This document shows, one piece after another, positions 21,053-57,685 of a stretch of 64,000 bases of DNA. The number at the start of each line of letters is the position of its first letter. Position 1 is the stretch's first letter. The notes beneath the pieces were generated by a model. The model saw only the letters and a list, made by a program, of their open reading frames with translations, ran no database searches and was not told the DNA's origin. Origin of the DNA: Methanobacteriota archaeon (GTDB taxonomy: Archaea > JAADCQ01 > Methanopyri > Methanopyrales > Methanopyraceae); contig JAMOPO010000027.1 of the NCBI GenBank assembly GCA_027064425.1, positions 179,353 through 243,352 on the forward strand, read 5' to 3'. Made by a program: the position numbers and the translations under genes.

Positions 21053-21077
21053 AATCGTTATGAGGTTCGTAACGATT
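21053..21077. promoter_or_regulatory. CGTTW-N9-TAACG palindromic element, copy 1
   Basis: AATCGTTA-tgaggttcg-TAACGATT, 6 nt after the tRNA-iMet CCA. Confidence 0.7.
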
Positions 21078-21101
21078 CGGGCCCGGGAGGAGGATGGAGG
21101 G

Positions 21102-22280
21102 TCAGGCTGCGGCCGGTGCCGGCGTCAGCAGCCACTGGACCAGCGTCTCCAGCAGGTAGGTGACCGTCGTCAGCAGCGAGCCTAGGAACAGGTCCTCGGG
21201 AGGTATGTCGACGCCCGTCGCGCTCTTGATGGCGGCCGCGAGCTCCCGGAATGCCTCCTGAACCTCCGGGGACAGGCCCTGGAACGCCTGGTGCTTGATG
21301 TCCTCCGGGAGCAGCATGGTCAGCACCGTGGACACCAGCGCCGCCAGGATCGACTTCTCCAGGAAGTTCACCGTCAGCATCTCGGTGAACGTCGGCTGAG
21401 ATTCCTGCCTGAGCTTACCGCCGGCCGCCCAGACGATTGCCTTCGCCAGGAGCGCGTGGGCGCCGGTTCTGTTCGTCAGCTCCGGGTGCGGTCCGAAGAG
21501 CACGAATCTGCCCCGGGGCACCCACTCGTCGCCCTCGCGGACGAAGTACTGGCCCGCGACGATCGCCCAGCCGCGGCAGGTGTCCACGTACTCGCCCACC
21601 GGCCAGATCTTGATCATGACGTCCTTGCCTTCGATCTTGGTGTACTTGATCCAGCACTTCTGACTCGGGTCGTACCGGAGACCCTCCTCCGGGCCGAACC
21701 CCGGGCCGTTCCAGTACTTGTACGTGAAGACGTTGTTCCACGTCCAGTCCGGCGTCAGCGGGTTGTTCGGCAGGATGAGCACGCGGCAGATCCGGTTGGG
21801 CCCGTTCATCCCGTCCACGACGGTGACGCCGTCCTGAATGAGGTCCTGGTGGCCCGGCCCGCTGGAGCTGTACTCGATGTTGCCCGCGTGCAGGTAGGCG
21901 CCCGCGCAAACGCCCACGTAGCCGATGCCCAGGTCGATCTGCGCGTGGTACAGGAGCTCCACGAAGTCGAAGTGCCAGTACCGCTCCGGGTGCCAGCCAC
22001 CGGGGACGTAGATCACGTTGATCTTAGCGCCGGTGAGTGGGTCGATGCCCGTCTCCAGCACGGTCCGCCAGCGGTCCTCCCTGGTCGTGTAGTGCCACAC
22101 TATCGTGTCCTGGGGACCGGTGGCCCGGTAAGTGTTCCACCAGTCCACGATCCTCTTCGTCCGCGCCACGCAGGTATCGTCCGCACCGCCTCCCGCCCAG
22201 GTGAGGATATGAATCTCCGCGGTGGCGGGCGATGCGACGAGCGTCACGGTCGCCAGGAGCACCAGGAGGGAGGGTCTCAC
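21102..22280 (-). CDS. secreted/membrane protein with class I GATase-like (BPL_N-like) domain
   Basis: Signal peptide, YVPGG, YVGVCAGAY, YWNGP, GPHPE triad, C-terminal hydrophobic helices. Confidence 0.75.
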   Translation of the reverse strand: MRPSLLVLLATVTLVASPATAEIHILTWAGGGADDTCVARTKRIVDWWNTYRATGPQDTIVWHYTTREDRWRTVLETGIDPLTGAKINVIYVPGGWHPERYWHFDFVELLYHAQIDLGIGYVGVCAGAYLHAGNIEYSSSGPGHQDLIQDGVTVVDGMNGPNRICRVLILPNNPLTPDWTWNNVFTYKYWNGPGFGPEEGLRYDPSQKCWIKYTKIEGKDVMIKIWPVGEYVDTCRGWAIVAGQYFVREGDEWVPRGRFVLFGPHPELTNRTGAHALLAKAIVWAAGGKLRQESQPTFTEMLTVNFLEKSILAALVSTVLTMLLPEDIKHQAFQGLSPEVQEAFRELAAAIKSATGVDIPPEDLFLGSLLTTVTYLLETLVQWLLTPAPAAA

Positions 22281-22339
22281 CCGGTCACCCCCGCCCGGCC
22301 CCGGCGGGAGGCCCTTTTATCGTTGGTAGGCAAGCGGTA

Positions 22340-22430
22340 CACCGGGCGCCGTGATGTGGATGGGATCTCCGGTGGGGATCGGGGAGGCCTCGCGGCCGAT
22401 GACCGGACCGGCGGGAGCCGAAACCCGCGG
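22340..22430 (+). ncRNA. candidate K-turn-containing sRNA
   Basis: TTTTAT about 25 nt upstream; GTGATGT, GA...GATGA K-turn-like motif and CCGA in a 150-nt intergenic gap. Confidence 0.35.
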
Positions 22431-22434
22431 GAAT

Positions 22435-22794
22435 TCACTCCAGCACCTTGATGTTCTCGACGACCTGCGGGTACAGCGTGATCTCGAAGTCGTCCTCCTC
22501 CCGCTTGATCACGATGTTACCTCGGTTGTCGATCCGCTCGACCTTACCCCGGATCTTCCTCCGACGGTACCCTTCGGGCGAGCGGTAGCGGATCACGACG
22601 ACGACCTCCTTGCCCACGATGTCCTCGTCCCAGTCCGGCCTGGGGAGGTCCAGGAACTCGCCGGTCTCCACGCCGAACTCCCGGTACGACGGGATCCGCT
22701 TGATCTCCTTCCCGCACTCCGGGCACTTTAACACCTCTACGCCGTCCTCCCGGAGCTCCGGGTTCATCTCGGTCCCGCACTCCGGGCACTTCAA
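22435..22794 (-). CDS. zinc-ribbon protein with Sm/LSm-like C-terminal domain
   Basis: Two CPECG knuckles; IVGKEVVV...IRGKVERIDNRGNIVI Sm1-like motif. Confidence 0.65.
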   Translation of the reverse strand: MKCPECGTEMNPELREDGVEVLKCPECGKEIKRIPSYREFGVETGEFLDLPRPDWDEDIVGKEVVVVIRYRSPEGYRRRKIRGKVERIDNRGNIVIKREEDDFEITLYPQVVENIKVLE

Positions 22795-23501
22795 TCCGGC
22801 TCACCCCGGGCCCGTTCGTGCTCTTCCGCGAGCTCCCGCGCGGAGCCGACGACCTCGTACCACAGGACCACGTCCCGACCGAGCCGCTCCACGCGCTTGA
22901 GCTTTAGTCCCACGCCCTCCGCCACCGTCGGGAACCCCTTCCCCTCCACCGGCGTGAGCGCCTCCGAGCCGCCGATCATCACGGGCGCCACCGCGACCCT
23001 GAACTCGTCGATCAGCCCATGCTTCAGGAAGCTCCAGGCGAGCGTGGGGCCACCCTCCAGCAGCAGGGACCTGACCCCGCGCTCGTACAGGACCCGCAGC
23101 CCCTCTCGCACGTCCGCGAACTCCCCTTCCCACCCGACCTCCTCCACCTCCACTCCACGCCGCTCGAGCCTGCGGCGGTGCTCCGGCTCCGCCTCGGCGC
23201 AGAGGATCAGCGTGGGGATCTCGCGGGCGGTTCGGACGAGCCGGCAGTTCAGGGGTATCCCGGTGCAGTCCGAGGAGAACACGACCCGGAGCGGGTCCTC
23301 ACCCTCAACCAGCCGGACGTTGAGCATCGGGTCGTCCCTGCGCACGGTGTTCGCGCCCACGGCGACCGCGTCGTGCTCGGCCCGAAGCCGGTGCACCTCC
23401 CTCAGGTCCTCCTCGCCGGAGATCCGGGCGTCTCCCTCCACGCTCACCACCTTGCCGTCGGCCGTCATCCCTACGTTGTACAGCACCCGGGGCCGCTTCA
23501 G
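22791..23501 (-). CDS. 2,5-diamino-6-ribosylamino-4(3H)-pyrimidinone 5'-phosphate reductase (RibD-C/ArfC)
   Basis: MTADGK, VH.LRA..DA..VGANTV..DDP.L, LLLEGG..L; start either GTG 23486 or CTG 23501. Confidence 0.9.
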   Translation of the reverse strand: MKRPRVLYNVGMTADGKVVSVEGDARISGEEDLREVHRLRAEHDAVAVGANTVRRDDPMLNVRLVEGEDPLRVVFSSDCTGIPLNCRLVRTAREIPTLILCAEAEPEHRRRLERRGVEVEEVGWEGEFADVREGLRVLYERGVRSLLLEGGPTLAWSFLKHGLIDEFRVAVAPVMIGGSEALTPVEGKGFPTVAEGVGLKLKRVERLGRDVVLWYEVVGSARELAEEHERARGEPD

Positions 23502-23522
23502 CGCGCGACGCCCCCTGGGACC

Positions 23523-25070: not shown

Positions 25071-25085
25071 GGGGGTGCTCCCCTG

Positions 25086-25400
25086 TTGGCGGAACGTCGT
25101 CGTCGGTACGTCCGGTTTCAGCAGCTCGTGGGGATGGAGGTTTACACGGAGGAGGGGAACAAGGTCGGCACGGTCCGAGACGTTACCTTCGACCCGGAGA
25201 CGGGCGACCTGAAGAGGTTAATCGTTGTGGTGACGGAGGAGTCGCCGGGCGGGCTGATTCCGATCCCGGGCGTCGAGGAGAAGCGGGTGGAGAACCTTAA
25301 CGCGGCCGCCGTCAAGGCGGTGGGCGATATCGTCATCGTGGAGGCCCGAGGACGCTCGGAGGAGGAGAAGAAGCGGTCCAAGGAGGAGGGAGAGGAGTAG
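25086..25400 (+). CDS. PRC-barrel domain protein
   Basis: LVGMEVYTEEG.KVG.V.D..FD, VKAVGDIVIV; TTG start after GGGGTG. Confidence 0.85.
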   Translation: MAERRRRYVRFQQLVGMEVYTEEGNKVGTVRDVTFDPETGDLKRLIVVVTEESPGGLIPIPGVEEKRVENLNAAAVKAVGDIVIVEARGRSEEEKKRSKEEGEE

Positions 25401-33628: not shown

Positions 33629-34915
33629 TTGCGGAAGCAGCTGCACGTGGTCGTGCGGGCCAGGAAGGACGCGTCGGCCGTGGAGGCGGCGCTGGAGCGG
33701 TACTACCCGGACTGGGAGTGGGAGGTGGACACGGTGCGCGGGGAACGCGACTTTTCCTGGATCATCGGGATGTGCCGCGAGCTTTTCGAGGATTCAAATG
33801 CGTTGTGGAAGGTGCTGCTGCTGGGTCGGAGGACGTACCCGCGCCGGGCCAGGTCCAGGGCGATGGTGGTGGAGGACTGGGCGGTCGTGAACGTGGGTAA
33901 GGCGGAGGTCAGGAACGCCCGGCTGGCCGAGATCGTGGACGCGATCGAGCTGGGCCGGGCGGCCCCGCGGCTCAGCGTGGCCTTCCGGGGCGTGCCGGAG
34001 CTTCGATCGGGGGACGTCGTGGTGGAGGATCAGGACGCGGACGTGTTCTTACGTTGGGGTCGGTTCGCCGAGTCGGTCGAGGAGGTGACGGGGGTCGAGC
34101 TGGAGCCGGGCGCGTACCTTTCGGTTAGGAAGCCCGGGAACCCGCCCGAGGAGGTGCTCTACGACGGCTCGGGGCGGCCGGTGCTGCGGCTCGTGACGCC
34201 GGACGAGGGGGAGCCGGAGGCGGGCCGGCTGGGCGAGGGTGAGCCGTTCGAGCTCGAGGAGTTCGTCAAGGCCAATGAGGAGGTGTTGGAGGAGCGGTTC
34301 GAGGAGTCGCGGGAGTTCCTGCGGGAGCACGTGGAGGAGTACTCGGAGGTGGTCGTGCCGGTCAGCGGCGGGAAGGACAGCGCGTGCTGTCTGGCGCTGG
34401 GTCGCGAGGTTGCGGACGAGCTGGGGCTGGACCTGGTGGCGGTGTACGTGGACACCGGGTTCGACCTGGGTCGTGAGGTGGTCGATGAGCTGGAGGAGAC
34501 GCTGGGCGTCGACATCGAGCGGGTGGACGTGTCGGAGGCGTTTCGCCGGGGGTTGAAGGAGAAGGAGCCGACGCCGGAGGATCGGTGGTGCACGGGGGTG
34601 AAGGTGGCCGGGATCCGGAAGGTGGTGAGCAGGCTGGAGGACCCGGTGCTGGTGGTGGGTGACCGGGACGCGGAGAGCAGGAGGCGCCGGCTGCGGCCGC
34701 CGGTGCACGAGAACAGGATGCTGGAGGTGCCGGAGGTGAACCCGCTGAAGTGGTGGAGCGGCGCCGAGGTGTTGGGGACGCTGTTCAGGCTGGACCTGCC
34801 GGTGAGCGAGTTCTACGAGCGGGGGTTCTACCGGCTGGGCTGCTCGGTGTGTCCGTCGCTGACGTCCTGGGAGCGGGCGCTGCTCGGGGAGGAGGAAACG
34901 TTACAAGGTGGTTAA
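33629..34915 (+). CDS. PAPS reductase/FAD synthetase family protein
   Basis: SGGKDS PP-loop, DTG, RWCT..K, GDRDAES.RR, GFYRLGC..CP. Confidence 0.85.
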   Translation: MRKQLHVVVRARKDASAVEAALERYYPDWEWEVDTVRGERDFSWIIGMCRELFEDSNALWKVLLLGRRTYPRRARSRAMVVEDWAVVNVGKAEVRNARLAEIVDAIELGRAAPRLSVAFRGVPELRSGDVVVEDQDADVFLRWGRFAESVEEVTGVELEPGAYLSVRKPGNPPEEVLYDGSGRPVLRLVTPDEGEPEAGRLGEGEPFELEEFVKANEEVLEERFEESREFLREHVEEYSEVVVPVSGGKDSACCLALGREVADELGLDLVAVYVDTGFDLGREVVDELEETLGVDIERVDVSEAFRRGLKEKEPTPEDRWCTGVKVAGIRKVVSRLEDPVLVVGDRDAESRRRRLRPPVHENRMLEVPEVNPLKWWSGAEVLGTLFRLDLPVSEFYERGFYRLGCSVCPSLTSWERALLGEEETLQGG

Positions 34916-34920
34916 CGATT
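34896..34920. promoter_or_regulatory. CGTTW-N9-TAACG palindromic element, copy 2
   Basis: AAACGTTA-caaggtggt-TAACGATT, 34 nt downstream of rps10 and containing the stop of the convergent gene. Confidence 0.65.
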
Positions 34921-34954: not shown

Positions 34955-35263
34955 TTACTTCATGATGATCTCGACGTGGACCTCCTCCGGGATGTGAATG
35001 CGCATCAGCCGCCGGATGGTCCGCTCGTCACCCTTAATGTCGATCAGCCGCTTGTGGATGCGCATCTCCCACTTGTCCCAGGTGGCCTTGCCCTCACCGT
35101 CCGGGGAGCGCCGCGTGGGCACGATCAGCCGCTTGGTCGGCAGCGGGATGGGGCCGGACATCTGGGCTCCGGTCTCCTCGACCACTTTCTTGATACGCTC
35201 GCACACCTCCTCGAGCTTCCGGTGGTCGGTGCTGGAGAGCTTGAGCCTGACCTCCTGGGCCAT
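34955..35263 (-). CDS. rps10: 30S ribosomal protein S10
   Basis: GPIPLPT, R.SP.GEG..TWDKWEMRIHKRLIDI. Confidence 0.97.
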   Translation of the reverse strand: MAQEVRLKLSSTDHRKLEEVCERIKKVVEETGAQMSGPIPLPTKRLIVPTRRSPDGEGKATWDKWEMRIHKRLIDIKGDERTIRRLMRIHIPEEVHVEIIMK

Positions 35264-35305
35264 GGGGGACTCACCCGGGAAGAAGTGGTGAGGGGCGTGG
35301 AGGGA

Positions 35306-36577
35306 TTACTCCTCCTTCTCGATCTTGACGCACATTCCTGCCGCCACGGTCTGACCCATGTCTCGGATCGCGAACCGGCCCAGCTGCGGGATGTCCTTGA
35401 CCTCCTCGATGACCATCGGCTTGGTGGGCTGCACGCGGACCCGCGCGGCCTCGCCGGTCTTCAGGAAGTCCGGGTTCTCCTCGATGACCTCACCGGTGGC
35501 TGGGTCGATCTTCTCGATCAGCTCCACGAACTTGCAGGCCACCTGCGCGGTGTGGCAGTGGAACACCGGCGTGTAGCCCGCCGAGATGGCGCTCGGGTGC
35601 TGCAGCACGACGATCTGGGCGATGAACGTGTCGTCCGGCGTGACCACGGTCGCCGGCTCGTCCGGGTGGCAGGCGACGTCACCTCGGCTGATGTCGTTCT
35701 TGCCGACGCCCTTCACGTTGAATCCGATGTTGTCACCCGGCTCGGCGCGCTCGATCTCCTCGTGGTGCATCTCGATGCTTCGGACCTCGCCCTCACCCTT
35801 GCGCCCGCCAGTGGCCGTGTACACCGGCTCGAACCGGACGGTGTCACCCACCTCTAGGACGCCGGTCTCGACTCGGCCGACGGGCACGGTACCGACACCG
35901 GTGATCGAGTACACGTCCTGCACCGGGATCCGCAGCGGCTTGTCGATCGGCTTCTCCGGCGGCTCCAGCTCGTCCAGGGCCTCGAGGATCGTCGGGCCGT
36001 CGTACCACGGCATGTTGTCGCTCCTCTCGACGACGTTGTCGCCCTCGAACGCGCTGATCGGGATGAACGGGATCTTGTCCACGTCGTAGCCGATGGTCTT
36101 CAGCAGCTCGGCGACCTCCTCCTTAACCTCCTCGTACCGGTCCTTGTCGTAGTCCACGAGGTCCATCTTGTTGATCGCGACGATCAGCTGGTCGATACCC
36201 ATCGTCTTGGCCAGGAAGGCGTGCTCCTTCGTCTGCGGCATCACTCCGTCGTCGGCGGCGACCACCAGGATGGCGGCGTCGGCCTGGCTGGCGCCGGTGA
36301 TCATGTTCTTGACGAAGTCTCGGTGACCCGGGCAGTCCACGATCGTGAACTCGTAGTTGTCGGTCTCGAACTTGGTGTGCGCCAGGTCGATGGTTACTCC
36401 TCGCTCTCGCTCCTCCTCCAGCGTGTCCATGACCACCCTGAACTTGTCCTCACCTTCACCCAGGTCCTTGTCGTCGATCACGCCCGTGTCGTACAGCAGT
36501 CGACCGACCAGGGTGGACTTACCGTGGTCTACGTGCCCGATAAACGCGAGGTTGATGTGCTCCTTCTCCTCTGCCAT
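35306..36577 (-). CDS. tuf: elongation factor 1-alpha
   Basis: [40 protein letters not shown]. Confidence 0.98.
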
Positions 36578-37664: not shown

Positions 37665-37689
37665 AATCGTTATGAAGATCGTAACGATC
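37665..37689. promoter_or_regulatory. CGTTW-N9-TAACG palindromic element, copy 3
   Basis: AATCGTTA-tgaagatcg-TAACGATC, just downstream of the hdrA SECIS. Confidence 0.7.
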
Positions 37690-37715
37690 CGCGGGGCTGG
37701 CGTGAGCCCCCATCC

Positions 37716-37750
37716 CCCGCCCCCTGGGCGTTTCGCCCTTCGGGGGCGGG
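37716..37750 (-). promoter_or_regulatory. archaeal SECIS element in hdrA 3' UTR
   Basis: Minus strand CCCGCCCCC-GAA-GGGCG-AAA-CGCCC-A-GGGGGCGGG: GAA/A internal loop between GC stems. Confidence 0.88.
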
Positions 37751-37777
37751 TTCATCGGGGGAGGGTGACCGTGAGCC

Positions 37778-39790
37778 TTACTCCTCCTCTTCCTCCTCGC
37801 TGGTCGCCTCCTCGAGCAGTGCCTCGAGCTGCGGCATCAGCTGCTCGTCCCGGTAGTACCGCAGCTGCATGGCGCCGCTCGGACACGCCGCGGCGCACTG
37901 GCCGCAGCCCTCGCAGGCGACCTCCTCGACCTCGGCGACCTTCTTGCCGTCCTTCTCGACGATCTCGATGGCGTCGAACGGGCACACCTGCGCGCACGCG
38001 CCGCAGCCGCCGCAGACGTCCTCGTCGACGGTGGCCGTGATCAGCTCGATCTCGACCTTGCCCTGCGACATCGGGATGCTGGCCTCGCTGGCCGCACCCT
38101 TCGCCTGGGCCACCGTGTCCGGGATGTCCTTCGGACCCTGCGCTACGCCGGCGATCTGCACGCCGCGGACCTTCGTGCTGACCGGCTCCAGCTTCGGGTG
38201 CAGCTCCTTGAAGAACCCGTCCGGCGACCGGTCGATGCCCAGCATGTCGGCGAGCTTGCTGTAGGTCTCCTCCGGTGCGACCAGCGCGCAGCCGAGGACG
38301 ACCAGGTCCGCCTCGATCTCCAGCGGCTCGCCGGTGAGCGTGTCCTCGACGCGCACGATGAGGTTCTTGGTCTCCGGGTCCTCGATGATCTCCGCCGGCC
38401 GGCCGCGGATGAACCGCACGCCGAACTGCTTCTGCGCGCGCTCGTAGTACTCCTCGTAGCCCTTACCGAACGCTCGCACGTCCATGTAGCAGCAGTAGAC
38501 CTCCGCCTCCGGGTTGTGCTGCTTGATCAGCTGCGCGTTCTTGAGGATGAACATGCAGCAGATCCTGCTGCAGTACGCGTTACCCTTCTCCTCCTTGCCC
38601 GGGCACCGCGAGCCCACGCAGTGGATGAACACGATCCGCTCCGGCTCCTTGCCGTCGCTCGGCCGGATCACGTGGCCCTCCGTCGGACCCGCCGGGTTCA
38701 GCATCCGCTCGAGCTCCAGCGTGGTGATCACGTTGTCGTACTTGCCGTAGCCGTACTCCTCGAGCTGGCTCGGATCGAACTCCTCGTAGCCGGTGGCGAC
38801 GATGATCGTGCCCACCTTGAGCCGGATCTCCTCCGGCTCCTGGTCGAAGTCGATCGCCGGCGGGTCCTGCGGGCACGCCTCCTCGCACAGCCGGCACTCG
38901 ATGCAGTGCTCGCGGTCGATCGTGTAGACCAGCGGCATCGCCTGCGGGAACGGCACGTAGATCGCCTTCCTGGTGCCGATTCCGAGGTCGAACTCGTTGG
39001 GCACCTCGATCGGGCAGACCTCGGCGCAGACGCCGCAGCCCGTGCACGCCTCCTCGTCCACGTACCGCGGCTTCTTCTCGATGGTGACCTCGAAGTTGCC
39101 GATGTAACCGTCGATCTCCTTGACCTCGGCGTAGGTGATCAGCTCGATGTTCGGGTGGTTACCGACCTGCACCATCTTCGGCGCTAGGATTCACATGGCG
39201 CAGTCGTCCGTCGGGAACGTCTTCGCCAGCCGCGCCATGTTGCCGCCGATCGTCGGCTCCTTCTCGACCAGGTACACCTTGAAGCCCTGGTCCGCCAGGT
39301 CCAGCGCCGCCTGGATGCCCGCGATACCGCCACCGATGATGAGCACGCTGTCCTCGACCTCGACCTCCTTGGTGGGCACGTCCTCGAGCTTGCGCGCCCG
39401 CTCGACCGCCGCGCGGACCAGGGTCTTGGCCTTCTCCGTGGCCTTCTCCGGCTCGTCCAGGTGCACGAACGAGCAGTGCTCCCGGATGTTGACCATCTCC
39501 ATGTAGTACGGTGACAGCCCTGCCTCCTTGACGCAGTTCCTGAACGTGTTCTCGTGGATCTTCGGCGTGCAGGCGACGACCACGACGCGGTCCAGGTCGT
39601 GCTCCTTGATCGCCTCCTGGATCTTCTCCTGCCCTGGATCCGAGCAGAAGAACGGGTAGTCCGTCGCGTACACGACGCCCGGCAGCTGCTTAGCGTACTC
39701 CACGACCTCCTCGACGTCTACCACTGCCTTGATGTTGACGCCTCAGTGGCACACGAACACTCCGACCCTGACGTCGTCACTCTCGCTCAC
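37778..39790 (-). CDS. hdrA: heterodisulfide reductase subunit A, selenoprotein with two in-frame UGA (Sec16, Sec200)
   Basis: One frame joins [23 protein letters not shown] 39191-39724 ([15 protein letters not shown]) and ORF 37778-39175; GGGIAG FAD motif, ferredoxin repeats, CSRICC; SECIS downstream. Confidence 0.93.
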
Positions 39791-43582: not shown

Positions 43583-44296
43583 TTGTCCTCCCATCTTTTG
43601 GACTCCCTCTCCCGCCTCGGCCTCTCCGAGCGGGAGGCCCGCGCCTACTTATTTCTGCTGAAAAACGGCGAGTCGACCGCGCGCGAGGTCAGCGAGGGCA
43701 CCGGCATCCCGATCTCGAAGGTCTACTCCGTGCTGAAATCCCTGGAGAAGAAAGGCTGGGTGACCGTGAAGCGCTCCTCCAGACCGGCCCGTTACGCCCC
43801 CGTCAACCCGGAGGTCGCCGTCGAGCGGGCCGTCGAGCGGGAGCTGGAGCGCAAGCGAGAGGAGCTCGAGGAGCAGGCCAGGCGCGCGCTGAGGGAGCTC
43901 GCCGAGTCCTACGCCTCGCACCGGAAAACGGTGGCGCAGGTGTACGAGGGGGAGCCCGCCAAAGACACGCTCAGAAGGACGCTCCGGCTGGCGCGCGAGG
44001 TCTGCGGGATCGTTCACGTCGGGAAAACCCTCCCGGACTGGCTGGTCCGAGACCTCTCGCGGGTCTCGGGACCACTGATCGTGCGCTGCGAGTCCGACCC
44101 CCCGCTCGAGCACCCGAGGATGGTCGTGAGGAGGCCGGGGCTGGAGGTCGACACCACGGTCCTCACGCTGGCGGTCGACCGAGGTGAGCTCATGCTGGCC
44201 CGGCTGGGCGAGCCGAACTACCTCCTGCTGGTTCGGGAGCCGATCGCCGCGGAGGGGCTCCGGAGCGTGGTGATCAAGACCTTAGAAGAGTCCTGA
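43583..44296 (+). CDS. TrmB family transcriptional regulator
   Basis: LGLS..EA.AY..LL, TA.EVS..TGIP.SKVY.VL.SL..KGWV, RP.RY.PV.P wHTH. Confidence 0.88.
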   Translation: MSSHLLDSLSRLGLSEREARAYLFLLKNGESTAREVSEGTGIPISKVYSVLKSLEKKGWVTVKRSSRPARYAPVNPEVAVERAVERELERKREELEEQARRALRELAESYASHRKTVAQVYEGEPAKDTLRRTLRLAREVCGIVHVGKTLPDWLVRDLSRVSGPLIVRCESDPPLEHPRMVVRRPGLEVDTTVLTLAVDRGELMLARLGEPNYLLLVREPIAAEGLRSVVIKTLEES

Positions 44297-44789
44297 CGGC
44301 CTCGGACAGCACGCTCCGAGGCAGGACCTCCCGGCCCACCGCCGTGAGGAGGACCTCCAGCTTGTCCGCCCACCACACGCACCAGTCGAGCCGGGTTCTC
44401 GGCGGCGGGCTGAACGGGAACATGTGCCGCCGCACCGCCGCGACGATGGCCCTCCCCTCACCCTCCCGGGCCAGCAGGTCCGCTCCGGTCTTCCAGTGGC
44501 AGACCCCGCAGTGACCGCCGGGATCCAGCCGGCAGAGCGGGCATCCTCGGATCCCGTAGCCGACGTCGTGAAGGAGTCCCGCCCGGACCGCCGTGAGCTC
44601 GTCCACGCCCAGCACCCGGGCCAGCCGCCAGCACAGGTACGCGGTCTTAACGCAGTGCTCGAGCCGCGTGTCGCCCCGGTGGCCGCGGGTACGGTGCAGC
44701 TCCCTCAACCGGTCCCGGAGGGCGTCCGACAGCTCCTCGGAGGTGCGGGCGAGGAGGTCCAGGAAGCGCCCGTATCGTTTCGATTCCAA
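44274..44789 (-). CDS. HD domain protein
   Basis: H...T.LEHC, AGLLHD, RRHMFP, ADK; extra CxxC...CxxC. Confidence 0.8.
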   Translation of the reverse strand: MESKRYGRFLDLLARTSEELSDALRDRLRELHRTRGHRGDTRLEHCVKTAYLCWRLARVLGVDELTAVRAGLLHDVGYGIRGCPLCRLDPGGHCGVCHWKTGADLLAREGEGRAIVAAVRRHMFPFSPPPRTRLDWCVWWADKLEVLLTAVGREVLPRSVLSEAVRTLLRS

Positions 44790-44797
44790 TAACGTTT
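44773..44797. promoter_or_regulatory. CGTTW-N9-TAACG palindromic element, copy 4 (degenerate)
   Basis: TATCGTTT-cgattccaa-TAACGTTT, 13 nt downstream of the ef1b stop and overlapping the HD gene start. Confidence 0.55.
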
Positions 44798-44810: not shown

Positions 44811-45089
44811 CTAGAGGGTTCGGCTCGCGGACACGACCTCGACCTGCTTGACGTCGTCGATCTCCTTGAGCGTCTCCTCGAGCCGGTCGGTCCCGCCCTC
44901 GGCGTCCGGTACGACCACCTTGACCCTGATCGCCTTCAGCCCGAAGGCGATGGGCTCCTCGTCGATGCCCTCGATCGACTCGACGATGTCCAGCCCCTCC
45001 AGCTTCTCACGGACCGTTTCCGCGAGCTCCTCGTAGTCGACCTCCGGGCTCTCCGGCAGCACCTTCAGGTCGACCATGACCTTGGACAC
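44811..45089 (-). CDS. ef1b: elongation factor 1-beta
   Basis: [23 protein letters not shown]. Confidence 0.93.
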
Positions 45090-50248: not shown

Positions 50249-50249
50249 C

Positions 50250-54614: not shown

Positions 54615-54659
54615 CCGCCGGGCTTCAGATAAAGCGATCCCCCACGGAGGGAACCCCCG

Positions 54660-55478
54660 CTAGAGGGCGTCCTCGACGGCCTCGACGAGCGCCTCGTACG
54701 ACTCTTCAAGCTTTCGCGGGTCGGTGCGCTCCTCGCGGGAGAGTGGGGGCAGCCGGACGACCTCGATGGGCTCCAGGACCTCGAGCACGCTCAGGGTGAC
54801 GGGCTCGCGTCCCGAGGCCATCGTTTCGACGGCCCGGGCGTAGTCGCGGAGGTCGTAGAGCAGGGCCGTGCCCGGGCCCACGGCCACGACCACGCCCTGC
54901 TCCTTGAGCACCCCGGGCCAGGGGGCGGCGAGGTTGTTCAGGCTCTCGACGAGCACGGGGCCCTCGCGGCGGATCTTGCGCCAGGCCCGGTCGATGACGC
55001 GGTAGATCTCCTTGGGGGAGGGCTCCTCGGCGTGCTTCTCGATCCGGTCGCAGTTCTCGAGCATCTGGGTCGCCTCCTCGGGGAGGTAGCGGAGGTCGGC
55101 GTCCGAGCCGTAGAGCCGCACGGTGTCGCCCAGCCGGTCGAACAGGACGTAGGCGTCGGGCCGGCTGGAGACGTAGCGCAGCGACATCTCGGACTCGACG
55201 GCCTTGGCCACGTCGGGGGTGGTCCAAACCCGGTGGAAGGGGTTCACGAGGGTGGGGGGCAGGTCCTCTCCGGCGGCGTCGAGGAGGCGGGTCACGTCCC
55301 GGCTCACGGGTATCCCGAGCTCGACGCACTTCCGGGTGTGATCGTAGTGCAGCCACACGTTGTGCCCGGAGCGGGGCTTGAAGGGGACGAGGTCTAGGGC
55401 GGAGACGAGCGGGATCGACGCGGTCGTCTTGCCCGAGTCGCTCTCCAGGAGCCCCACGACCAGGACGACGGAGGTCAC
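54660..55478 (-). CDS. P-loop ATPase/GTPase (COG4028-like)
   Basis: VGLL..DSGKTT, FKP.SGHN.W, VNP, LVES.N. Confidence 0.75.
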   Translation of the reverse strand: MTSVVLVVGLLESDSGKTTASIPLVSALDLVPFKPRSGHNVWLHYDHTRKCVELGIPVSRDVTRLLDAAGEDLPPTLVNPFHRVWTTPDVAKAVESEMSLRYVSSRPDAYVLFDRLGDTVRLYGSDADLRYLPEEATQMLENCDRIEKHAEEPSPKEIYRVIDRAWRKIRREGPVLVESLNNLAAPWPGVLKEQGVVVAVGPGTALLYDLRDYARAVETMASGREPVTLSVLEVLEPIEVVRLPPLSREERTDPRKLEESYEALVEAVEDAL

Positions 55479-55494
55479 GGTACCCTCCCCCGGG

Positions 55495-56226
55495 GTGACG
55501 GGCTTGCGGGAGTGGCGGCCCGAGCCGGGGTACGACCCGCTGGAGACGGCGGAGGAGGTCCGGGAGTGGGTCTGCCGGGATCGCGCCCGGCGGTACTACC
55601 GGTTCCGGGAGACCCGGTTTTACGGTGGCTGCGCGACGGCGGACGCGGTCGGGTGCAACCTGGACTGCGCGTACTGCTACGTCAACTACCCACGCCGGAG
55701 GCCGTGGGAGCGCAGATGGCGGTTCTACCCACCCGAGGCGGTGGCGCGCCGGCTGGCGGGGATGAGGGGGGACGTGGTCCGGGTCTCGGGGTGCGAGCCG
55801 ACGCTTTGCCGGGAGCACCTGTTAAGGCTGATCGAGGCGTGCGAGCGGGAGATGCCCGAGCGGCGGTTCGTGCTCGAGACGAACGGGACGCTGCTGGGGG
55901 CGGACCGGTCGTTCGTGCGCGAGCTGGCCGACTTCGAGAACCTGCACGTCCGGGTGTGCCTGAAGGGCTGCGATGAGGATTCCTTCGCGCGGATCACCAA
56001 CGCGGACCCGAGCGGGTTCGAGCTGCAGCTCAGGTGCCTTCGGCACCTGATGAGCGAGGGGGTCTCGTTCCACCCCGCGCTCCCGGACCTGTTCGAGCGG
56101 GAGGAGGTCGAGCGGCTGGTCGAGAGGCTGAGCGAGCTGGGGATCCCGCCGGGGGCGCTGGAGGTGGAGCCGATCACGTTCTACGAGCACGTGGAGCGTG
56201 AGATGAGGAGGAGGGGGCTGCGGTAG
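55495..56226 (+). CDS. radical SAM protein
   Basis: FYGG.ATAD.VGCNLDCAYCY, R.SG.EPT, F.LETNG, VRV.LKG. Confidence 0.88.
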   Translation: MTGLREWRPEPGYDPLETAEEVREWVCRDRARRYYRFRETRFYGGCATADAVGCNLDCAYCYVNYPRRRPWERRWRFYPPEAVARRLAGMRGDVVRVSGCEPTLCREHLLRLIEACEREMPERRFVLETNGTLLGADRSFVRELADFENLHVRVCLKGCDEDSFARITNADPSGFELQLRCLRHLMSEGVSFHPALPDLFEREEVERLVERLSELGIPPGALEVEPITFYEHVEREMRRRGLR

Positions 56227-56284
56227 TCGGGCAAGGCCCCTGCTCTTCATCCGGGGCGTCCGTCGAAACCTCCCTCGTCATCCT
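56225..56284 (-). ncRNA. C/D box sRNA (second of tandem pair)
   Basis: Minus: ATGACGA-gggaggtttcga-CGGA...ATGAAGA-gcaggggccttgc-CCGA. Confidence 0.7.
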
Positions 56285-56297
56285 ACGCCTTTCGGCC

Positions 56298-56357
56298 CGG
56301 TCAGGGAAGCCCAGGTACAGATCATCGGTGCCTCACCCGGTACGGCCTCGTCATCCC
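56298..56357 (-). ncRNA. C/D box sRNA (first of tandem pair)
   Basis: Minus: ATGACGA-ggccgtaccgg-GTGA...GATGA-tctgtacctgggcttcc-CTGA; the C box overlaps the hemL stop. Confidence 0.7.
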
Positions 56358-57643
56358 GTGAGCCGGGTGAGCGCGGACTTGATCGCCTCCTCGGTGCGCT
56401 CGAGGTCCTCCTCGGTGTGCGCGGTGGAGAGGAACCACGCCTCGTAGTTGGAGGCGGCGATCCACACTCCCTCCTCGAGGAGCCCGCGGTGGAAGGTCTT
56501 GAAGGCATCGTGGTCCGCGGCGTTGACGTCCTCGTAGTCCCGCACGCGCTCCACGCCGAAGTACACCTGGAACATGGACTCGACGCGGTTGACGACGCCC
56601 TCCAGGCCCCGGTCCTCGAGCTCGTCGGCGAGCGTGGAGGCGAGCCGCTCGGCCTTGTCCGCGAGCTCGTCGTACGGCTCCTCCCGCTCGAGCACCTCGA
56701 GGGTCACGAGGCCGGCCGTGGCGGAGACGGGGTTGCCGCTGAAGGTGCCCGCCTGGTAGACCTTGCCCTCGGGCGCGAGGTGGGACATGTACTCCTCGGG
56801 GCCGGCGACGGCACCGATGGGCATCCCACCGCCGAGGATCTTGCCCAGGCAGACGAGGTCGGCGTCCACGCCGTAGTACTCCTGCGCCCCGCCCAGGCCC
56901 AGCCGGAAGCCCGTGATAACCTCGTCGAAGATCAGGAGCCGCTCGGTCCCGTCGCAGTACTCGCGGAGGGCCTTGAGGAACTCGGGGTCGGGTGGCACGC
57001 AGCCCACGTTGCCCAGGACGGGCTCGACGATGACGGCGCCGACCTCCTCGTCGAAGCGCTCCACGGTCTCCACGAACGCCTCCACGTCGTTGAAGGGGCA
57101 GACGAGCGTGTGCTCGGCCACGGACTCGGGCACGCCGGGCGAGTCGGGGGCGCCGAGCTCGGAGGCGCCGGAGCCGGCCCGGACGAGGACGGCGTCGTGC
57201 GCGCCGTGGTAGCAGCCCTCGAACTTGATGATCTTCTCGCGGCCGGTGTAGGCGCGCGCGAGCCGGAGGGCGCTCATCGTGGCCTCGGTGCCCGTGTTCA
57301 CGAGGCGGACTTTCTCCACGTTGGGGACCAGCTCGACGACCTTCTCGGCGAGGGCGACCTCGGGCTCGGTGAGGGTGCCGTAGTGGAAGCCGTCGACCAC
57401 CCGCTCCTTGACCGCCTCGACGACCTCGGGGTGCGCGTGCCCGAGGATGAGCGGGCCGAAGGCCATGCAGTAGTCGATGAGGACGCGGCCGTCGGCGGTG
57501 TACAGTCGGGAGCCCTCCGCGCGCTCGACGCAGAAGGGGTACGGGTCGAAGCGTCGGACGGGGCTGCTCACGCCGCCGGGCATCACCTTCTCGGCGCGCT
57601 TGAACACCTCCTTGGACACGGGGAACAGGTCCTCGTACTCCAA
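56351..57643 (-). CDS. hemL: glutamate-1-semialdehyde 2,1-aminomutase
   Basis: PGGVSSPVR, GPLILGH, NTGTEATM, FEGCYHG, FDEVITGFR, GKILGGGMP, QAGTFSGNP; TTG start inferred. Confidence 0.96.
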   Translation of the reverse strand: MEYEDLFPVSKEVFKRAEKVMPGGVSSPVRRFDPYPFCVERAEGSRLYTADGRVLIDYCMAFGPLILGHAHPEVVEAVKERVVDGFHYGTLTEPEVALAEKVVELVPNVEKVRLVNTGTEATMSALRLARAYTGREKIIKFEGCYHGAHDAVLVRAGSGASELGAPDSPGVPESVAEHTLVCPFNDVEAFVETVERFDEEVGAVIVEPVLGNVGCVPPDPEFLKALREYCDGTERLLIFDEVITGFRLGLGGAQEYYGVDADLVCLGKILGGGMPIGAVAGPEEYMSHLAPEGKVYQAGTFSGNPVSATAGLVTLEVLEREEPYDELADKAERLASTLADELEDRGLEGVVNRVESMFQVYFGVERVRDYEDVNAADHDAFKTFHRGLLEEGVWIAASNYEAWFLSTAHTEEDLERTEEAIKSALTRLTG

Positions 57644-57660
57644 GAGCGTCCCCCGCGGGC

Positions 57661-57685
57661 TTTCGTTAAGGTTCTCGTAACGATT
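57661..57685. promoter_or_regulatory. CGTTW-N9-TAACG palindromic element, copy 5
   Basis: TTTCGTTA-aggttctcg-TAACGATT, 5 nt after the tRNA-Thr CCA. Confidence 0.7.

What the first reader, a model, noticed from the sequence alone, without database searches (positions are those of the whole stretch)
21053..57685. Recurring fixed-spacing palindrome (WWWCGTTW-N9-TAACGWTY) at the 3' ends of strong transcription units: candidate protein-bound terminator/insulator system
Seen: five copies at 21053-21077, 34896-34920, 37665-37689, 44773-44797 and 57661-57685. Each has a 9-nt unconserved spacer and AT-rich arms that stand out in this GC-rich DNA. Each lies directly downstream of a gene class normally expressed at high level: tRNA-iMet (+6 nt), tuf-rps10 (+34), hdrA (just after the SECIS), ef1b (+13) and ribH/tRNA-Thr (+5). 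Two sit between convergent genes, so they are not simply promoter operators. No long oligo-T terminator tract is obvious at these 3' ends. Inference: an 8-bp AU-rich RNA stem would be weak at hyperthermophilic temperature, while conserved arms with a fixed-length spacer suggest a dimeric DNA-binding protein. This could be a roadblock termination or read-through insulation system, or a chromosome-organising site. I do not recognise it as a described element.
Basis: partly seen in the sequence, partly recalled or inferred. Interest (0 to 1): 0.88.

Follow-up and report, generated by a model that had tools for sequence, protein, structure and literature searches.

The report
Genus-wide palindrome marking transcript ends
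A 25-base mirror-image DNA word sits just after every tRNA and other stable-RNA gene, and after some protein genes, in this heat-loving methanogen and its close relatives; it probably tells the cell where transcripts end, in place of the usual run of T's.

Summary
All five sites exist at the stated coordinates (0 expected by chance). They belong to a larger class. The true motif is a 25-bp quasi-palindrome, AATCGTTAYGA-N3-TCRTAACGATT, with about 110 copies in this 1.54-Mb genome and none in a reversed-genome null.

- **Where it sits:** it follows 34 of 34 Infernal-supported tRNA genes, mostly 5 nt after the encoded CCA. It also follows 5S rRNA, SRP RNA and RNase P RNA, and it lies in the 16S and 23S 3' flanks. 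About 55 protein-gene 3' ends carry it, with a pile-up 13-14 nt after the stop codon.
- **Context:** oligo-T terminators are nearly absent in this genome.
- **Distribution:** the motif occurs in all six genomes of the genus and in no other lineage searched. Orthologous sites are conserved.
- **How it is read:** the two arms vary independently (no covariation), and the RNA hairpin is predicted to melt below growth temperature. This favours recognition as double-stranded DNA by a dimeric protein.
- **Function:** a terminator or 3'-end-forming role is likely but unproven. Copies inside operon-like clusters (mcrB|mcrD) and one read-through RNA contig argue against an absolute stop.
- **Prior art:** the tRNA-linked core CGTTA-N9-TAACG was published in 2017 (PMC5217627). 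The wider distribution and the DNA-level reading are new.

The parts
21053..21077 (.). Motif copy 1 (0 mismatches to AATCGTTAYGA-N3-TCRTAACGATT). It starts 6 nt after the CCA of tRNA-Met(CAT) and ends 24 nt from the stop of a convergent minus-strand ORF.
   Evidence: counterparts after the same tRNA in G001, G002 and G004
20973..21046 (+). tRNA-Met(CAT) gene with encoded CCA
   Evidence: aragorn; Rfam RF00005, 51.9 bits
34896..34920 (.). Motif copy 2 (5 mismatches). It lies 34 nt after the rps10 stop (tuf-rps10 unit, minus strand). It contains the TAA stop of the convergent PAPS-reductase-domain ORF 33629-34915.
   Evidence: orthologous copy in G002 at L107 8073 with the stop codon again inside the distal arm
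34955..36577 (-). EF-1alpha (35306-36577) and ribosomal protein S10 (34955-35263) genes, whose 3' end faces copy 2
   Evidence: Pfam
37665..37689 (.). Motif copy 3 (1 mismatch). It lies at the end of the 3' UTR of the HdrA-like selenoprotein gene and 74 nt upstream of the next minus-strand gene (Gfo/Idh/MocA).
   Evidence: orthologous copy in G002 at L107 10851
37690..37777 (-). GC-rich SECIS-like hairpin in the 3' UTR, between the HdrA-like stop codon and copy 3
   Evidence: fold, (z -3.84); conserved in G002; in-frame TGA at residue 178
37778..39724 (-). HdrA-like Fe-S flavoprotein gene with one in-frame TGA (Sec)
44773..44797 (.). Motif copy 4 (5 mismatches). It lies 13 nt after the EF-1beta stop, next to or overlapping the called start of an HD-domain gene.
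   Evidence: orthologous copy in G002 at L107 17975
44811..45089 (-). EF-1beta gene
   Evidence: Pfam PF00736
57661..57685 (.). Motif copy 5 (4 mismatches). It lies 5 nt after the CCA of tRNA-Thr(TGT) and 17 nt upstream of the called start of a class-III aminotransferase (hemL-like) gene.
   Evidence: counterparts in G001, G002 and G004
57691..57768 (-). tRNA-Thr(TGT) gene with encoded CCA
   Evidence: aragorn; Rfam 66.2 bits

Best explanation
The five sites are copies of a lineage-specific (Methanopyri) 25-bp two-fold-symmetric DNA element, AATCGTTAYGA-N3-TCRTAACGATT.

Shown: the element marks the 3' ends of transcription units. It follows all tRNA genes, 5S rRNA, SRP RNA and RNase P RNA, lies in the rRNA 3' flanks, and follows roughly a tenth of protein-gene ends that have a downstream gap.

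Inferred mechanism:
1. The element is read as double-stranded DNA by an as yet unidentified dimeric protein, not as an RNA hairpin.
2. The bound protein makes RNA polymerase stop, or has the nascent RNA cut, a few nucleotides upstream of or at the near edge of the element.
3. tRNA transcripts therefore end at or within a few nt of their encoded CCA, and mRNAs end about 8-15 nt after the stop codon.
4. Because the element is symmetric, one copy can serve both genes of a convergent pair.
5. It stands in for the oligo-T signals that other archaea use, which are nearly absent here.
6. It is probably leaky or tunable, not absolute.

The binding protein, the stop or cut, and its efficiency are all inferred.
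For: **Reality and scale**
- 110 copies with at most 6 mismatches, against 0 in the reversed genome.
- A PWM scan finds a discrete class: 70 sites at 30 bits or more and 113 at 12 bits or more, with 0 in the null.
- Half-sites almost never occur alone: 59 of 62 AATCGTTA words are in pairs.

**Link to 3' ends**
- 34 of 34 Infernal tRNA genes carry it, 24 of them exactly 5 nt after CCA. tRNA-SeC and the intron-bearing tRNA-Trp carry it too.
- It lies 11 nt after 5S rRNA, 14 nt after SRP RNA and 23 nt after RNase P RNA, and it occurs in the 16S and 23S 3' flanks.
- Of 94 sites, 5 lie inside features, 71 lie within 60 nt after a 3' end, 32 are convergent and 5 divergent. Random intergenic positions give 22%, 13% and 26% for the last three.
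- The distance to the upstream stop codon is tight, with an onset at 13-14 nt (13 of 58). The distance to the next start codon ranges from -17 to 382 nt.

**A ruler**
- The modal CCA-to-motif spacer is 5 nt in G000 and 7 nt in G004 (20 of 26). It is uniform within a genome.

**Oligo-T is scarce**
- 0 of 33 tRNAs have T5 within 100 nt downstream. Only 26 of 520 CDS ends have T5 within 80 nt.

**Conservation**
- The motif is present in 6 of 6 genomes of the genus and 0 of 15 other archaeal families.
- In a scan of 185,579 species genomes, 32 of 36 matching stretches lie in three Methanopyri/Methanobacteriota MAGs. The other 4 are single hits in bacteria.
- Window sites 2-4 and the mcrB|mcrD site are kept at orthologous positions although the flanks have diverged.

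**DNA-level reading, not a hairpin**
- Watson-Crick pairs between arms: 873 of 1210 observed, against 872.0 when arms are swapped among sites (z 0.11).
- Per position, observed pairing equals that expected under independence in 108 tRNA-linked sites from four genomes.
- On the sense strand C.A (37) outnumbers U.G (15) at pair 9, and 19 of 26 G004 sites have C.A there.
- The flanks show no complementarity.
- Predicted RNA dG is -7.3 kcal/mol at 37 C, and 0 of 31 sites are folded at 98 C. The neighbouring SECIS-like hairpin is GC-rich.

**RNA evidence**
- In four small-RNA runs of one study, laid on G002, contigs carry loose A-runs. I read these as library A-tails. They occur at the CCA end of tRNA-Ile and at CCA+3 and CCA+7, at the CCA end of tRNA-Ala, and at the end of the tRNA-Trp-like gene.
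- The published analysis of M. kandleri small RNAs lists 5'-leader and intron intermediates but no 3'-trailer intermediates. It places 3' processing first (section read).
Against: - No protein is identified and no binding is shown.
- No 3'-end map exists for mRNAs. The RNA data are assembled contigs from one study and cannot establish ends.
- A 185-nt RNA contig (in 2 of 4 runs) continues from a tRNA 3' part through the motif copy behind tRNA-Val(TAC) of G002 and about 115 nt past that copy (140 letters beyond the shared stretch). Some transcripts, or contaminating DNA, therefore cross a copy. That copy is degenerate and is the only one of 108 with C at position 7.
- A copy lies between mcrB and mcrD in all six genomes, 18 nt before the mcrD start in G000. 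About nine tandem sites leave no room for a separate promoter before the next gene. A full stop there would silence downstream genes.
- At window site 2 the convergent ORF's stop codon lies inside the far arm in both G000 and G002. That mRNA must be transcribed well into the element.
- A simple roadblock that covers all 25 bp would stall RNA polymerase before the CCA is made. The model needs the polymerase to enter the near half-site (inference).
- Lack of covariation does not exclude an RNA hairpin whose sequence is itself read by a protein.
- An RNase Z-like gene is present, so ordinary tRNA 3' processing is possible.
- Sites at protein-gene ends show no directional asymmetry (16 agree, 14 disagree).
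- Gene calls come from a home-made caller.
Confidence: 0.5

Rival explanations
1. RNA-level signal. The element is transcribed, and the RNA is recognised by a nuclease such as RNase Z or a maturation factor, either as a hairpin or by sequence. The nuclease then cuts or trims the transcript to its mature 3' end, or the element protects the upstream RNA. This is the published speculation for the tRNA-linked copies.
For: - Fixed short distance to the tRNA CCA end.
- tRNA-linked copies are strongly directional: orientation was recovered for 30 of 31 in a leave-one-out test.
- An RNase Z-like gene is present.
- An RNA contig crosses one copy, and another contig starts inside the far arm of the tRNA-Ile copy.
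- Copies inside operon-like clusters fit processing or stability better than a full stop.
- PMC5217627 proposes a 3' maturation signal.
Against: - No covariation between arms.
- On average about 3 of 11 pairs are non-Watson-Crick (873 of 1210 paired).
- Sense-strand C.A exceeds U.G.
- The hairpin is predicted to be unfolded at 85-98 C.
- An inverted repeat without pairing has no obvious reading as single-stranded RNA.
- The same element follows mRNAs, 5S rRNA, SRP RNA and RNase P RNA, which are not RNase Z substrates as far as I know (recalled).
- No 3'-trailer intermediates are listed in the published small-RNA study.
Confidence: 0.2
2. DNA site with a topological or chromosome-structural role. 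It would be a preferred binding or cleavage site for a topoisomerase or nucleoid protein, placed downstream of heavily transcribed genes to absorb transcription-driven supercoils or to insulate neighbours. This resembles gyrase binding to bacterial REP elements. It would not itself define RNA ends.
For: - The DNA-level, two-fold-symmetric reading.
- Enrichment behind the most heavily transcribed genes: all stable RNAs, EF-1alpha/S10, EF-1beta, McrB, thermosome, L32e, S15, L7Ae, AtpA and the HdrA-like gene.
- Enrichment between convergent genes (32 of 94).
- About one site per 14-18 kb.
- Tolerance of positions inside operon-like clusters.
- The lineage has its own unusual topoisomerase (recalled, not tested).
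Against: - A supercoil sink needs no single-nucleotide ruler, yet the spacer to CCA is 5 nt in 24 of 34 tRNAs and shifts in concert to 7 nt in another species.
- The distance to stop codons has a sharp onset at 13-14 nt.
- Site spacing is random-like (CV 1.0).
- Many carrier genes are ordinary housekeeping or unknown genes.
Confidence: 0.15
3. Selfish or neutral repeat. A REP- or MITE-like palindromic element spread into permissive intergenic DNA at gene ends and has no host function.
For: - About 110 extragenic palindromic copies, some clustered in non-coding stretches: five on contig C2 and three on C27 31-33 kb.
- Location at gene ends and between convergent genes, as for bacterial REPs.
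Against: - No Y1/RAYT transposase in a 99% complete genome.
- Copies are kept at orthologous positions across species while the flanks diverge.
- Every tRNA gene has one at a fixed distance.
- Invariant GTT/AAC in 108 of 108 tRNA-linked sites.
- No hairpin covariation.
Confidence: 0.03
4. Operator of a transcription factor that regulates the downstream gene. The site would be promoter-proximal, as for the hemL-like gene 17 nt after site 5 or mcrD 18 nt after its copy.
For: - Several copies end 11-26 nt before the next start codon.
- The palindromic form is typical of operators.
Against: - Position is fixed relative to the upstream gene end and is variable (-17 to 382 nt) relative to the next start.
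- 32 of 94 copies lie between convergent genes with no downstream promoter, and only 5 lie in divergent regions. At least two of those five (C15 183610, C57 58959) follow tRNA genes that aragorn missed. A third at C5 15594 lies beyond the motif copy (C5 15679) that follows another such tRNA.
Confidence: 0.03

Closest known systems
[quoted passage not shown]
   Same: It has the same core, the same palindromic character, the same place just downstream of tRNA genes, and the same restriction to this lineage. It is the same element.
   Different: - The paper reports it for about half of the tRNA genes, about 10 bp downstream, and speculates on a tRNA 3' maturation signal.
- Here it follows all tRNA genes of G000 plus 5S rRNA, SRP RNA and RNase P RNA, lies in the rRNA 3' flanks, and follows about 55 protein-gene ends.
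- The consensus is 25 bp with 11-bp arms.
- It is conserved across six genomes at orthologous sites.
- The arms do not covary, which points to DNA-level recognition.
- The paper's Additional file 2 was not visible to me.
Archaeal oligo-T / U-tract terminators acting with aCPSF1 (FttA) (PMC7515710 and PMC8716108, seen as search listing and abstracts only)
   Same: It occupies the position of a terminator at the 3' ends of stable-RNA and protein genes. The 3'-end cleavage mode of aCPSF1 could be the executing step.
   Different: - There is no T-tract: 0 of 33 tRNAs have T5 within 100 nt.
- The signal is a specific 25-bp symmetric sequence limited to one lineage.
Sequence-specific protein-dependent terminators of eukaryotes and organelles: Reb1/Nsi1/TTF-I sites behind rRNA genes, and mTERF1 at the 16S rRNA/tRNA-Leu boundary in mitochondria (recalled, no call)
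   Same: A defined DNA site just downstream of stable-RNA genes, proposed to act through a bound protein. mTERF1 also works in both directions.
   Different: - No binding protein is known here.
- The site is a near-perfect palindrome.
- It would be the first such case in Archaea.
- It serves tRNA, rRNA, other non-coding RNA and mRNA genes alike.
- RNA ends appear closer to the site than a plain roadblock would give.
Bacterial REP/BIME extragenic palindromes with RAYT transposases (recalled, no call)
   Same: About 100 copies of a short extragenic palindrome at gene ends and between convergent genes, with some inside operons.
   Different: - No RAYT/Y1 transposase.
- No stem covariation.
- Positional orthology across species.
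- Obligatory presence behind every tRNA gene.
Bacterial intrinsic (hairpin plus U-tract) terminators
   Same: An inverted repeat at the 3' ends of genes.
   Different: - The stem is AU-rich and predicted to be unfolded at growth temperature.
- No compensatory changes.
- No U-tract.
- The sequence, not the structure, is conserved.

Membership tests
M. kandleri tRNA-downstream motif pair CGTTA(N)9TAACG (PMC5217627) | Core words CGTTA and TAACG separated by 9 nt, palindromic | tested here: met
   All five window sites and about 110 genome sites. CGTTA/TAACG lie at positions 4-8 and 18-22 of the 25-mer.
M. kandleri tRNA-downstream motif pair CGTTA(N)9TAACG (PMC5217627) | Located about 10 bp downstream of tRNA genes | tested here: met
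   34 of 34 Infernal tRNAs. The motif starts 8-13 nt after the discriminator base in 33 of them; the 34th reads 18 nt from a truncated model match. Window sites 1 and 5 are of this type. Sites 2-4 are not tRNA-linked.
M. kandleri tRNA-downstream motif pair CGTTA(N)9TAACG (PMC5217627) | Restricted to the Methanopyrus lineage | tested here: met
   6 of 6 genomes of the genus and 0 of 15 other families. In the GTDB-wide exact scan, 32 of 36 stretches lie in three Methanopyri/Methanobacteriota MAGs and 4 are singletons elsewhere.
Hairpin-type (intrinsic) terminator or other structured RNA element | Stem kept by compensatory changes | tested here: not met
   873 Watson-Crick pairs observed against 872.0 after swapping arms among 110 sites. 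Per-position observed equals expected in 108 tRNA-linked sites.
Hairpin-type (intrinsic) terminator or other structured RNA element | Hairpin stable under growth conditions | tested here: not met
   ViennaRNA: mean dG -7.3 kcal/mol at 37 C, -0.06 at 85 C, and 0 of 31 folded at 98 C. Standard salt parameters were used. The cell's very high salt is not modelled.
Hairpin-type (intrinsic) terminator or other structured RNA element | U/T tract after the stem | tested here: not met
   Flanks are G/C-rich. 0 of 33 tRNAs have T5 within 100 nt downstream.
Archaeal oligo-T terminator | Run of 5 or more T on the sense strand at the 3' end | tested here: not met
   0 of 54 motif-bearing CDS ends also have T5. 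Genome-wide only 26 of 520 CDS ends have T5.
REP/BIME-RAYT system | Cognate Y1 (RAYT) transposase gene | tested here: not met
   PF01797 has no match in G000 (99.17% complete). The control search found the family in 6 of 14 known genomes.
REP/BIME-RAYT system | Many extragenic palindromic copies at gene ends | tested here: met
Protein-roadblock / factor-dependent sequence-specific terminator | Specific protein bound to the DNA site | not testable with these tools
   Only indirect evidence: two-fold symmetry without pairing selection.
Protein-roadblock / factor-dependent sequence-specific terminator | RNA 3' ends at a fixed short distance upstream of the site | tested here: inconclusive
   A-tailed contig ends at CCA, CCA+3 and CCA+7 for one tRNA, and at the mature ends of two others. 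One study, contigs only. A contig crosses one degenerate copy.
DNA uptake signal sequences paired in terminators | Single copies of the word abundant, also inside genes | tested here: not met
   Only 3 of 62 AATCGTTA words lie outside paired sites.
Promoter operator of a transcription factor | Position fixed relative to downstream promoters or starts | tested here: not met
   5 of 94 sites in divergent regions against 26% expected. Distance to the next start ranges from -17 to 382 nt.

The most novel reading that the evidence does not exclude
Methanopyri have replaced oligo-T termination at all stable-RNA genes, and at a chosen set of mRNAs, with a sequence-specific, protein-dependent, bidirectional terminator. 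This would be the first such system in Archaea. Its built-in ruler (5 nt in this species, 7 nt in another) places the primary RNA 3' end at or next to the genome-encoded CCA, so tRNAs are born almost mature at the 3' end. The same element, tuned by its degeneracy, sets read-through inside clusters such as mcrB|mcrDCGA.
Probability: 0.3. Interest if true: 0.85.

Novelty: new variant of a known kind. Interest (0 to 1): 0.7.

Why it matters
Archaeal transcription termination is known only through oligo-T tracts and the general cleavage factor aCPSF1/FttA. No sequence-specific terminator element or terminator-binding protein has been described in the papers I could search.

Here an organism growing near the upper temperature limit of life has almost no T-tracts behind its genes. 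It carries one precise 25-bp word behind every stable-RNA gene. That word is conserved across the whole lineage and is read, by the sequence statistics, as DNA.

If it is a protein-dependent terminator, three things follow:
- It gives a direct handle for fishing out a new archaeal termination factor, using a defined bait.
- It explains how tRNAs with encoded CCA get their ends at 100 C.
- It offers a compact bidirectional terminator part for thermophile genetics.

If it is instead a topological or processing site, it is still the most regular non-coding element of these genomes, and its function remains unassigned nine years after its first computational sighting.

Tried and rejected
- **C/D-box sRNA link:** a strict C/D-box regular expression found only 3 candidates in the genome, 1 of them with a motif downstream. 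This is too few to say whether C/D sRNA genes carry the element. Rfam gave two sub-threshold C/D-like hits next to sites.
- **Direction at protein-gene ends:** 16 agree and 14 disagree with the direction model built from tRNA sites, so there is no signal.
- **Regular spacing along the chromosome:** CV 1.0, so spacing is not periodic.
- **GC clamp outside the palindrome:** none. Only the first flanking pair is marginal (43 against 35.9).
- **RAYT transposase:** none found.
- **Absence of RNase Z as an argument:** rejected, because a full-length RNase Z-like gene is present.
- **TrmB-family ORF at 43583:** the family is confirmed, but nothing ties it to the motif.
- **Literature:**
  - Searching four 8-letter words of the motif gave only unrelated primer hits.
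  - The search gave nothing relevant.
  - The 2013 small-RNA paper has no passage on a terminator, trailer or inverted repeat; its 'palindrom' and 'hairpin' hits concern CRISPR and an mRNA hairpin (find).
  - The 2023 paper on internal termination in M. maripaludis has no passage on mcr.
  - The genome paper could not be opened by DOI.
- **RNA contigs:**
  - Stretches without cover behind the motif copies of tRNA-Ala, tRNA-Ile and the tRNA-Trp-like gene prove nothing.
  - The fall of summed depth across the copies also proves nothing, because these are contigs.
  - One low-depth contig (one run) ends 6 nt before the convergent-gene copy at L109 9684. A contig end is not an RNA end.

Full report
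**1. The observation.** Reading the sites side by side and scanning the whole genome showed that the '9-nt unconserved spacer' is mostly conserved. The genome was laid: 1,539,955 bases, 57 contigs, 67.8% G+C; the window is C27:179353-243352. The element is a 25-bp quasi-palindrome, AATCGTTAYGA-N3-TCRTAACGATT, with 11-bp arms and a 3-bp centre.
- With at most 6 mismatches in the 22 specified positions there are 110 copies. By mismatch count from 0 to 6 the numbers are 5, 18, 9, 24, 25, 13 and 16. The reversed genome has none.
- A symmetrised weight matrix finds a closed class: 70 sites at 30 bits or more, 113 at 12 bits or more, and none in the null.
- The half-word AATCGTTA occurs 62 times, 59 of them inside paired sites. 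The palindrome, not the half-site, is therefore the unit.

**2. What the sites sit next to.**
- tRNA genes:
  - aragorn found 35 tRNA genes, and 32 have the element starting 4-8 nt after the encoded CCA.
  - The three without it are not supported by Infernal.
  - Infernal finds 34 tRNA genes, and all 34 have the element. In 24 of them it starts exactly 8 nt after the discriminator base, which is CCA plus 5.
  - tRNA-SeC and a tRNA-Trp with a 78-nt intron have it as well.
- Other stable RNAs:
  - The element lies 11 nt after 5S rRNA, 14 nt after SRP RNA and 23 nt after RNase P RNA.
  - It lies 84 and 276 nt after the 16S 3' end, 134 nt after the 23S 3' end, and 24 nt after a C/D-like sRNA hit.
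- Genome-wide context, using a home-made gene caller (1502 genes, 86.7% coding). Of the 94 sites with at most 5 mismatches:
  - 5 lie inside features, against 84% of random positions.
  - 71 lie within 60 nt downstream of a 3' end, against 22% of random intergenic positions.
  - 32 lie between convergent genes (13% expected), 46 are in tandem contexts, and 5 are in divergent regions (26% expected).
  - At least two of those five (C15 183610, C57 58959) follow intron-bearing tRNA genes that aragorn had missed. A third at C5 15594 lies beyond the copy (C5 15679) that follows another such tRNA.
- The distance from the upstream stop codon has a sharp onset: 13 of 58 gene ends are at 13-14 nt and only 3 are at 8-12 nt. 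The distance to the next start codon ranges from -17 to 382 nt. The element is therefore positioned by the upstream gene's end.

**3. The five window sites.**
- Site 1 follows tRNA-Met(CAT) by 6 nt and faces a convergent ORF.
- Site 2 lies 34 nt after rps10 of the tuf-rps10 unit. It contains the stop codon of a convergent PAPS-reductase-domain ORF.
- Site 3 closes the 3' UTR of an HdrA-like selenoprotein gene, right after a GC-rich SECIS-like hairpin. The gene has an in-frame TGA at residue 178; the hairpin fold is.
- Site 4 lies 13 nt after the EF-1beta stop.
- Site 5 follows tRNA-Thr(TGT) by 5 nt and precedes a class-III aminotransferase gene, not ribH.

**4. No oligo-T.**
- No tRNA gene (0 of 33) has T5 within 100 nt downstream.
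- Of 520 protein-gene ends with at least 40 nt of downstream gap, 26 have T5 within 80 nt.
- 54 of those 520 ends have the element within 100 nt, and none has both.

**5. Which protein genes carry it.** I scanned 38 upstream genes, plus those of the window, against Pfam.
- Highly expressed classes among them: ribosomal proteins S10, L32e, S15 and L7Ae; EF-1alpha; EF-1beta; McrB; thermosome; the A-ATPase A subunit; rubrerythrin; a polyferredoxin; an FrhB-like protein; and the HdrA-like protein.
- Ordinary genes among them: TruD, PdxS, NrdD, DHQ synthase II, topoisomerase VI A, an ABC ATPase, and Macro, CBS and FIST proteins.
- About a dozen have no Pfam family.
- 'Strong transcription units' is thus only partly true for protein genes.

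**6. Taxonomic range and conservation.**
- The 19-base core with one mismatch occurs 54, 15, 14, 37, 55 and 47 times per strand in the six genomes of the genus. It occurs in none of 15 genomes of other archaeal families, and the backward control gave 0.
- An exact 23-base pattern scanned over one genome of each of 185,579 species hit 36 stretches. 32 lie in three MAGs titled Methanopyri or Methanobacteriota archaeon. The other 4 are single hits in unrelated bacteria, about the number I expect by chance.
- The tRNA genes of G001, G002 and G004 carry the element in the same place.
- Window sites 2, 3 and 4 have counterparts at orthologous positions in G002 (61% G+C) although the surrounding intergenic DNA has diverged.
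- A copy between mcrB and mcrD is present in all six genomes.

**7. RNA hairpin or DNA site?** I analysed 108 unique tRNA-linked sites from four genomes, oriented by the tRNA.
- GTT (positions 5-7) and AAC (19-21) are invariant or nearly so.
- At every variable position the number of Watson-Crick combinations equals that expected if the two arms vary independently. Pair 9 gives 53 observed against 50.6 expected, pair 4 gives 77 against 68.1, pair 10 gives 70 against 67.5, and pair 11 gives 58 against 60.6.
- On the sense strand the non-pairing C.A (37) outnumbers U.G (15) at pair 9. In G004, 19 of 26 sites have C.A there.
- For all 110 sites of G000, swapping arms among sites gives 872.0 +/- 9.0 Watson-Crick pairs against 873 observed (z 0.11; 943 of 2000 permutations reach it).
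- The flanks add no complementarity.
- ViennaRNA predicts -7.3 kcal/mol at 37 C, about 0 at 85 C, and no folded site (0 of 31) at 98 C. The lineage grows at 84-110 C (as cited in PMC5217627).
- The organism does build GC-rich hairpins where structure matters, as in the SECIS-like element next to site 3.
- An inverted repeat that is conserved as sequence but not as pairing is what a two-fold-symmetric protein on double-stranded DNA would produce.
- Caveat: a protein that reads both the sequence and the shape of an RNA hairpin is not excluded.

**8. Direction and rulers.**
- tRNA-linked copies are directional. The arm next to the tRNA keeps AAT at positions 1-3, while the outer positions of the far arm drift. 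A leave-one-out matrix recovers the orientation of 30 of 31.
- Copies at unambiguous protein-gene ends show no such bias (16 against 14).
- The CCA-to-element spacer is uniform within a genome and differs between genomes: 5 nt in G000, 5-7 nt in G001 and G002, and 7 nt in 20 of 26 sites of G004.
- A concerted shift of this kind, together with the 13-14-nt onset after stop codons, points to a molecular ruler between the element and the RNA 3' end.

**9. RNA evidence.** One study holds four small-RNA runs that match G002. These are kept as assembled contigs, which cannot establish RNA ends. I laid them on a 5-kb stretch of G002 that holds three tRNA-type genes and one convergent-gene copy.
- Contigs carry loose A-runs, which I take to be library A-tails (my inference). 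For tRNA-Ile they occur at the CCA end, 1-2 nt before it, and at CCA+3 and CCA+7. CCA+7 is the second base of the element.
- Loose A-runs also occur at the CCA end of tRNA-Ala, and at the end and three internal places of the tRNA-Trp-like gene.
- One 185-nt contig, seen in two runs, continues from a shared tRNA 3' part through the element behind tRNA-Val(TAC) and about 115 nt past that copy. That copy is the only one of 108 with C at the otherwise invariant position 7.
- The published analysis of such libraries lists precursors with 5' leaders and with introns but none with 3' trailers. It places 3' processing first (section 13 read).
- All this fits ends made very early and close to the element, with leakage at a damaged copy. 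It does not prove it.

**10. Points against a simple terminator.**
- The mcrB|mcrD copy ends 18 nt before the mcrD start and lies inside the mcrBDCGA cluster. About nine tandem sites leave no room for a promoter before the next gene.
- At site 2 the convergent ORF ends inside the far arm in two species.
- A protein covering all 25 bp would stop the polymerase before CCA is transcribed. The observed CCA+3 and CCA+7 ends require the polymerase to enter the near arm, with the far arm as the effective barrier, or require cleavage behind a polymerase paused further in. Both are inference.
- An RNase Z-like gene exists.
- Internal, partial terminators inside operons are reported for another methanogen (PMC10450193, abstract only). 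Leaky action would therefore not be unprecedented.

**11. Comparison with what is known.**
- The tRNA-linked core CGTTA(N)9TAACG was found by a spaced-motif statistic in M. kandleri AV19 in 2017. It was described as palindromic, lying about 10 bp after about half of the tRNA genes, and specific to that organism. It was guessed to be a signal for a 3' maturation enzyme (passages read). The window's sites 1 and 5 are plain members of that class.
- It fails the tests for a hairpin terminator, an oligo-T terminator, a REP/RAYT element (no Y1 transposase), an uptake-sequence pair and a promoter operator.
- It works most like the protein-dependent terminators behind eukaryotic rRNA genes or the mitochondrial mTERF site (recalled). 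Membership cannot be claimed without a protein.

**12. Verdict.**
- Rivals are an RNA-level processing signal (0.2) and a topological or structural DNA site (0.15).
- Novelty is tempered by the 2017 report. Interest stays high because the element gives a defined bait for a possible first sequence-specific termination factor in Archaea.

Noticed in passing
window 37778-39724 (-) and 37690-37777: An HdrA-like gene is read through one in-frame TGA (U178, context DDCAMUILAPK). A very stable GC-rich hairpin lies in its 3' UTR (-59.8 kcal/mol for 126 nt, z -3.84) and is conserved in G002. This fits a selenoprotein with an archaeal SECIS.
   Followed up: partly
L109 (G002) 7813 joined to 11069: RNA contigs in two runs join the CCA end of tRNA-Ile to a point 40 nt upstream of the tRNA-Trp-like gene 3.3 kb away. 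This could be a library chimera between abundant RNAs, or a real ligation or circularisation product. It is unexplained.
   Followed up: no
G000 C27:32047-32202 (-), outside the window; L109 11109-11223 in G002: Rfam's tmRNA model gives sub-threshold hits here. In G000 aragorn resolves the hit as tRNA-Trp(CCA) with a 78-nt intron, which holds C/D-box-like words. The tmRNA hit is a tRNA-like artefact.
   Followed up: partly
G000 contig C2 514-3337; C27 32017/32253/32485; C26 312/575/845; C15 345499/345596: Motif copies cluster 100-650 nt apart in stretches without called genes. These are probably arrays of small unannotated RNA genes, each closed by a copy. Only one C/D-like hit and the rRNA flanks were identified.
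   Followed up: partly
G000 whole genome: Runs of T or A are very scarce: 134 T-runs and 162 A-runs of 5 or more, and one of each of 7 or more, in 1.54 Mb. Canonical archaeal oligo-T terminators can serve few genes here.
   Followed up: partly
tRNA-linked sites of G004 (loci L081-L106): In G004 the near arm has C and the far arm has A at mirror positions 9 and 17 in 19 of 26 sites. This is a consistent direction-specific asymmetry of the two half-sites that I cannot explain.
   Followed up: no
G000 C26:18637-23889: The mcr cluster (mcrB, D, C, G, A, followed by mtrE) has a motif copy after mcrB, and unusually long gaps before mcrG (116 nt) and mcrA (88 nt). The cluster may be transcribed in several units in this lineage.
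   Followed up: partly
G000 C16:2594-2671 and C18:379-456; C29:41813-41903 and C32:283-373: Near-identical tRNA-His and tRNA-Ser(TGA) loci with identical downstream flanks lie on separate short contigs. These are either recent duplications or an assembly split of one locus.
   Followed up: no
G000 C15:41309-41409 (+); also G001 and G002: aragorn calls a 101-nt tRNA with a four-base anticodon (gggg). Infernal scores it only 31.8 bits. It carries a good motif copy 7 nt after CCA, so it is probably a real, unusual or intron-bearing tRNA gene.
   Followed up: no
window 43583-44296 (+): A TrmB-family winged-helix regulator (PF01978, 86 bits) lies here.
   Followed up: partly
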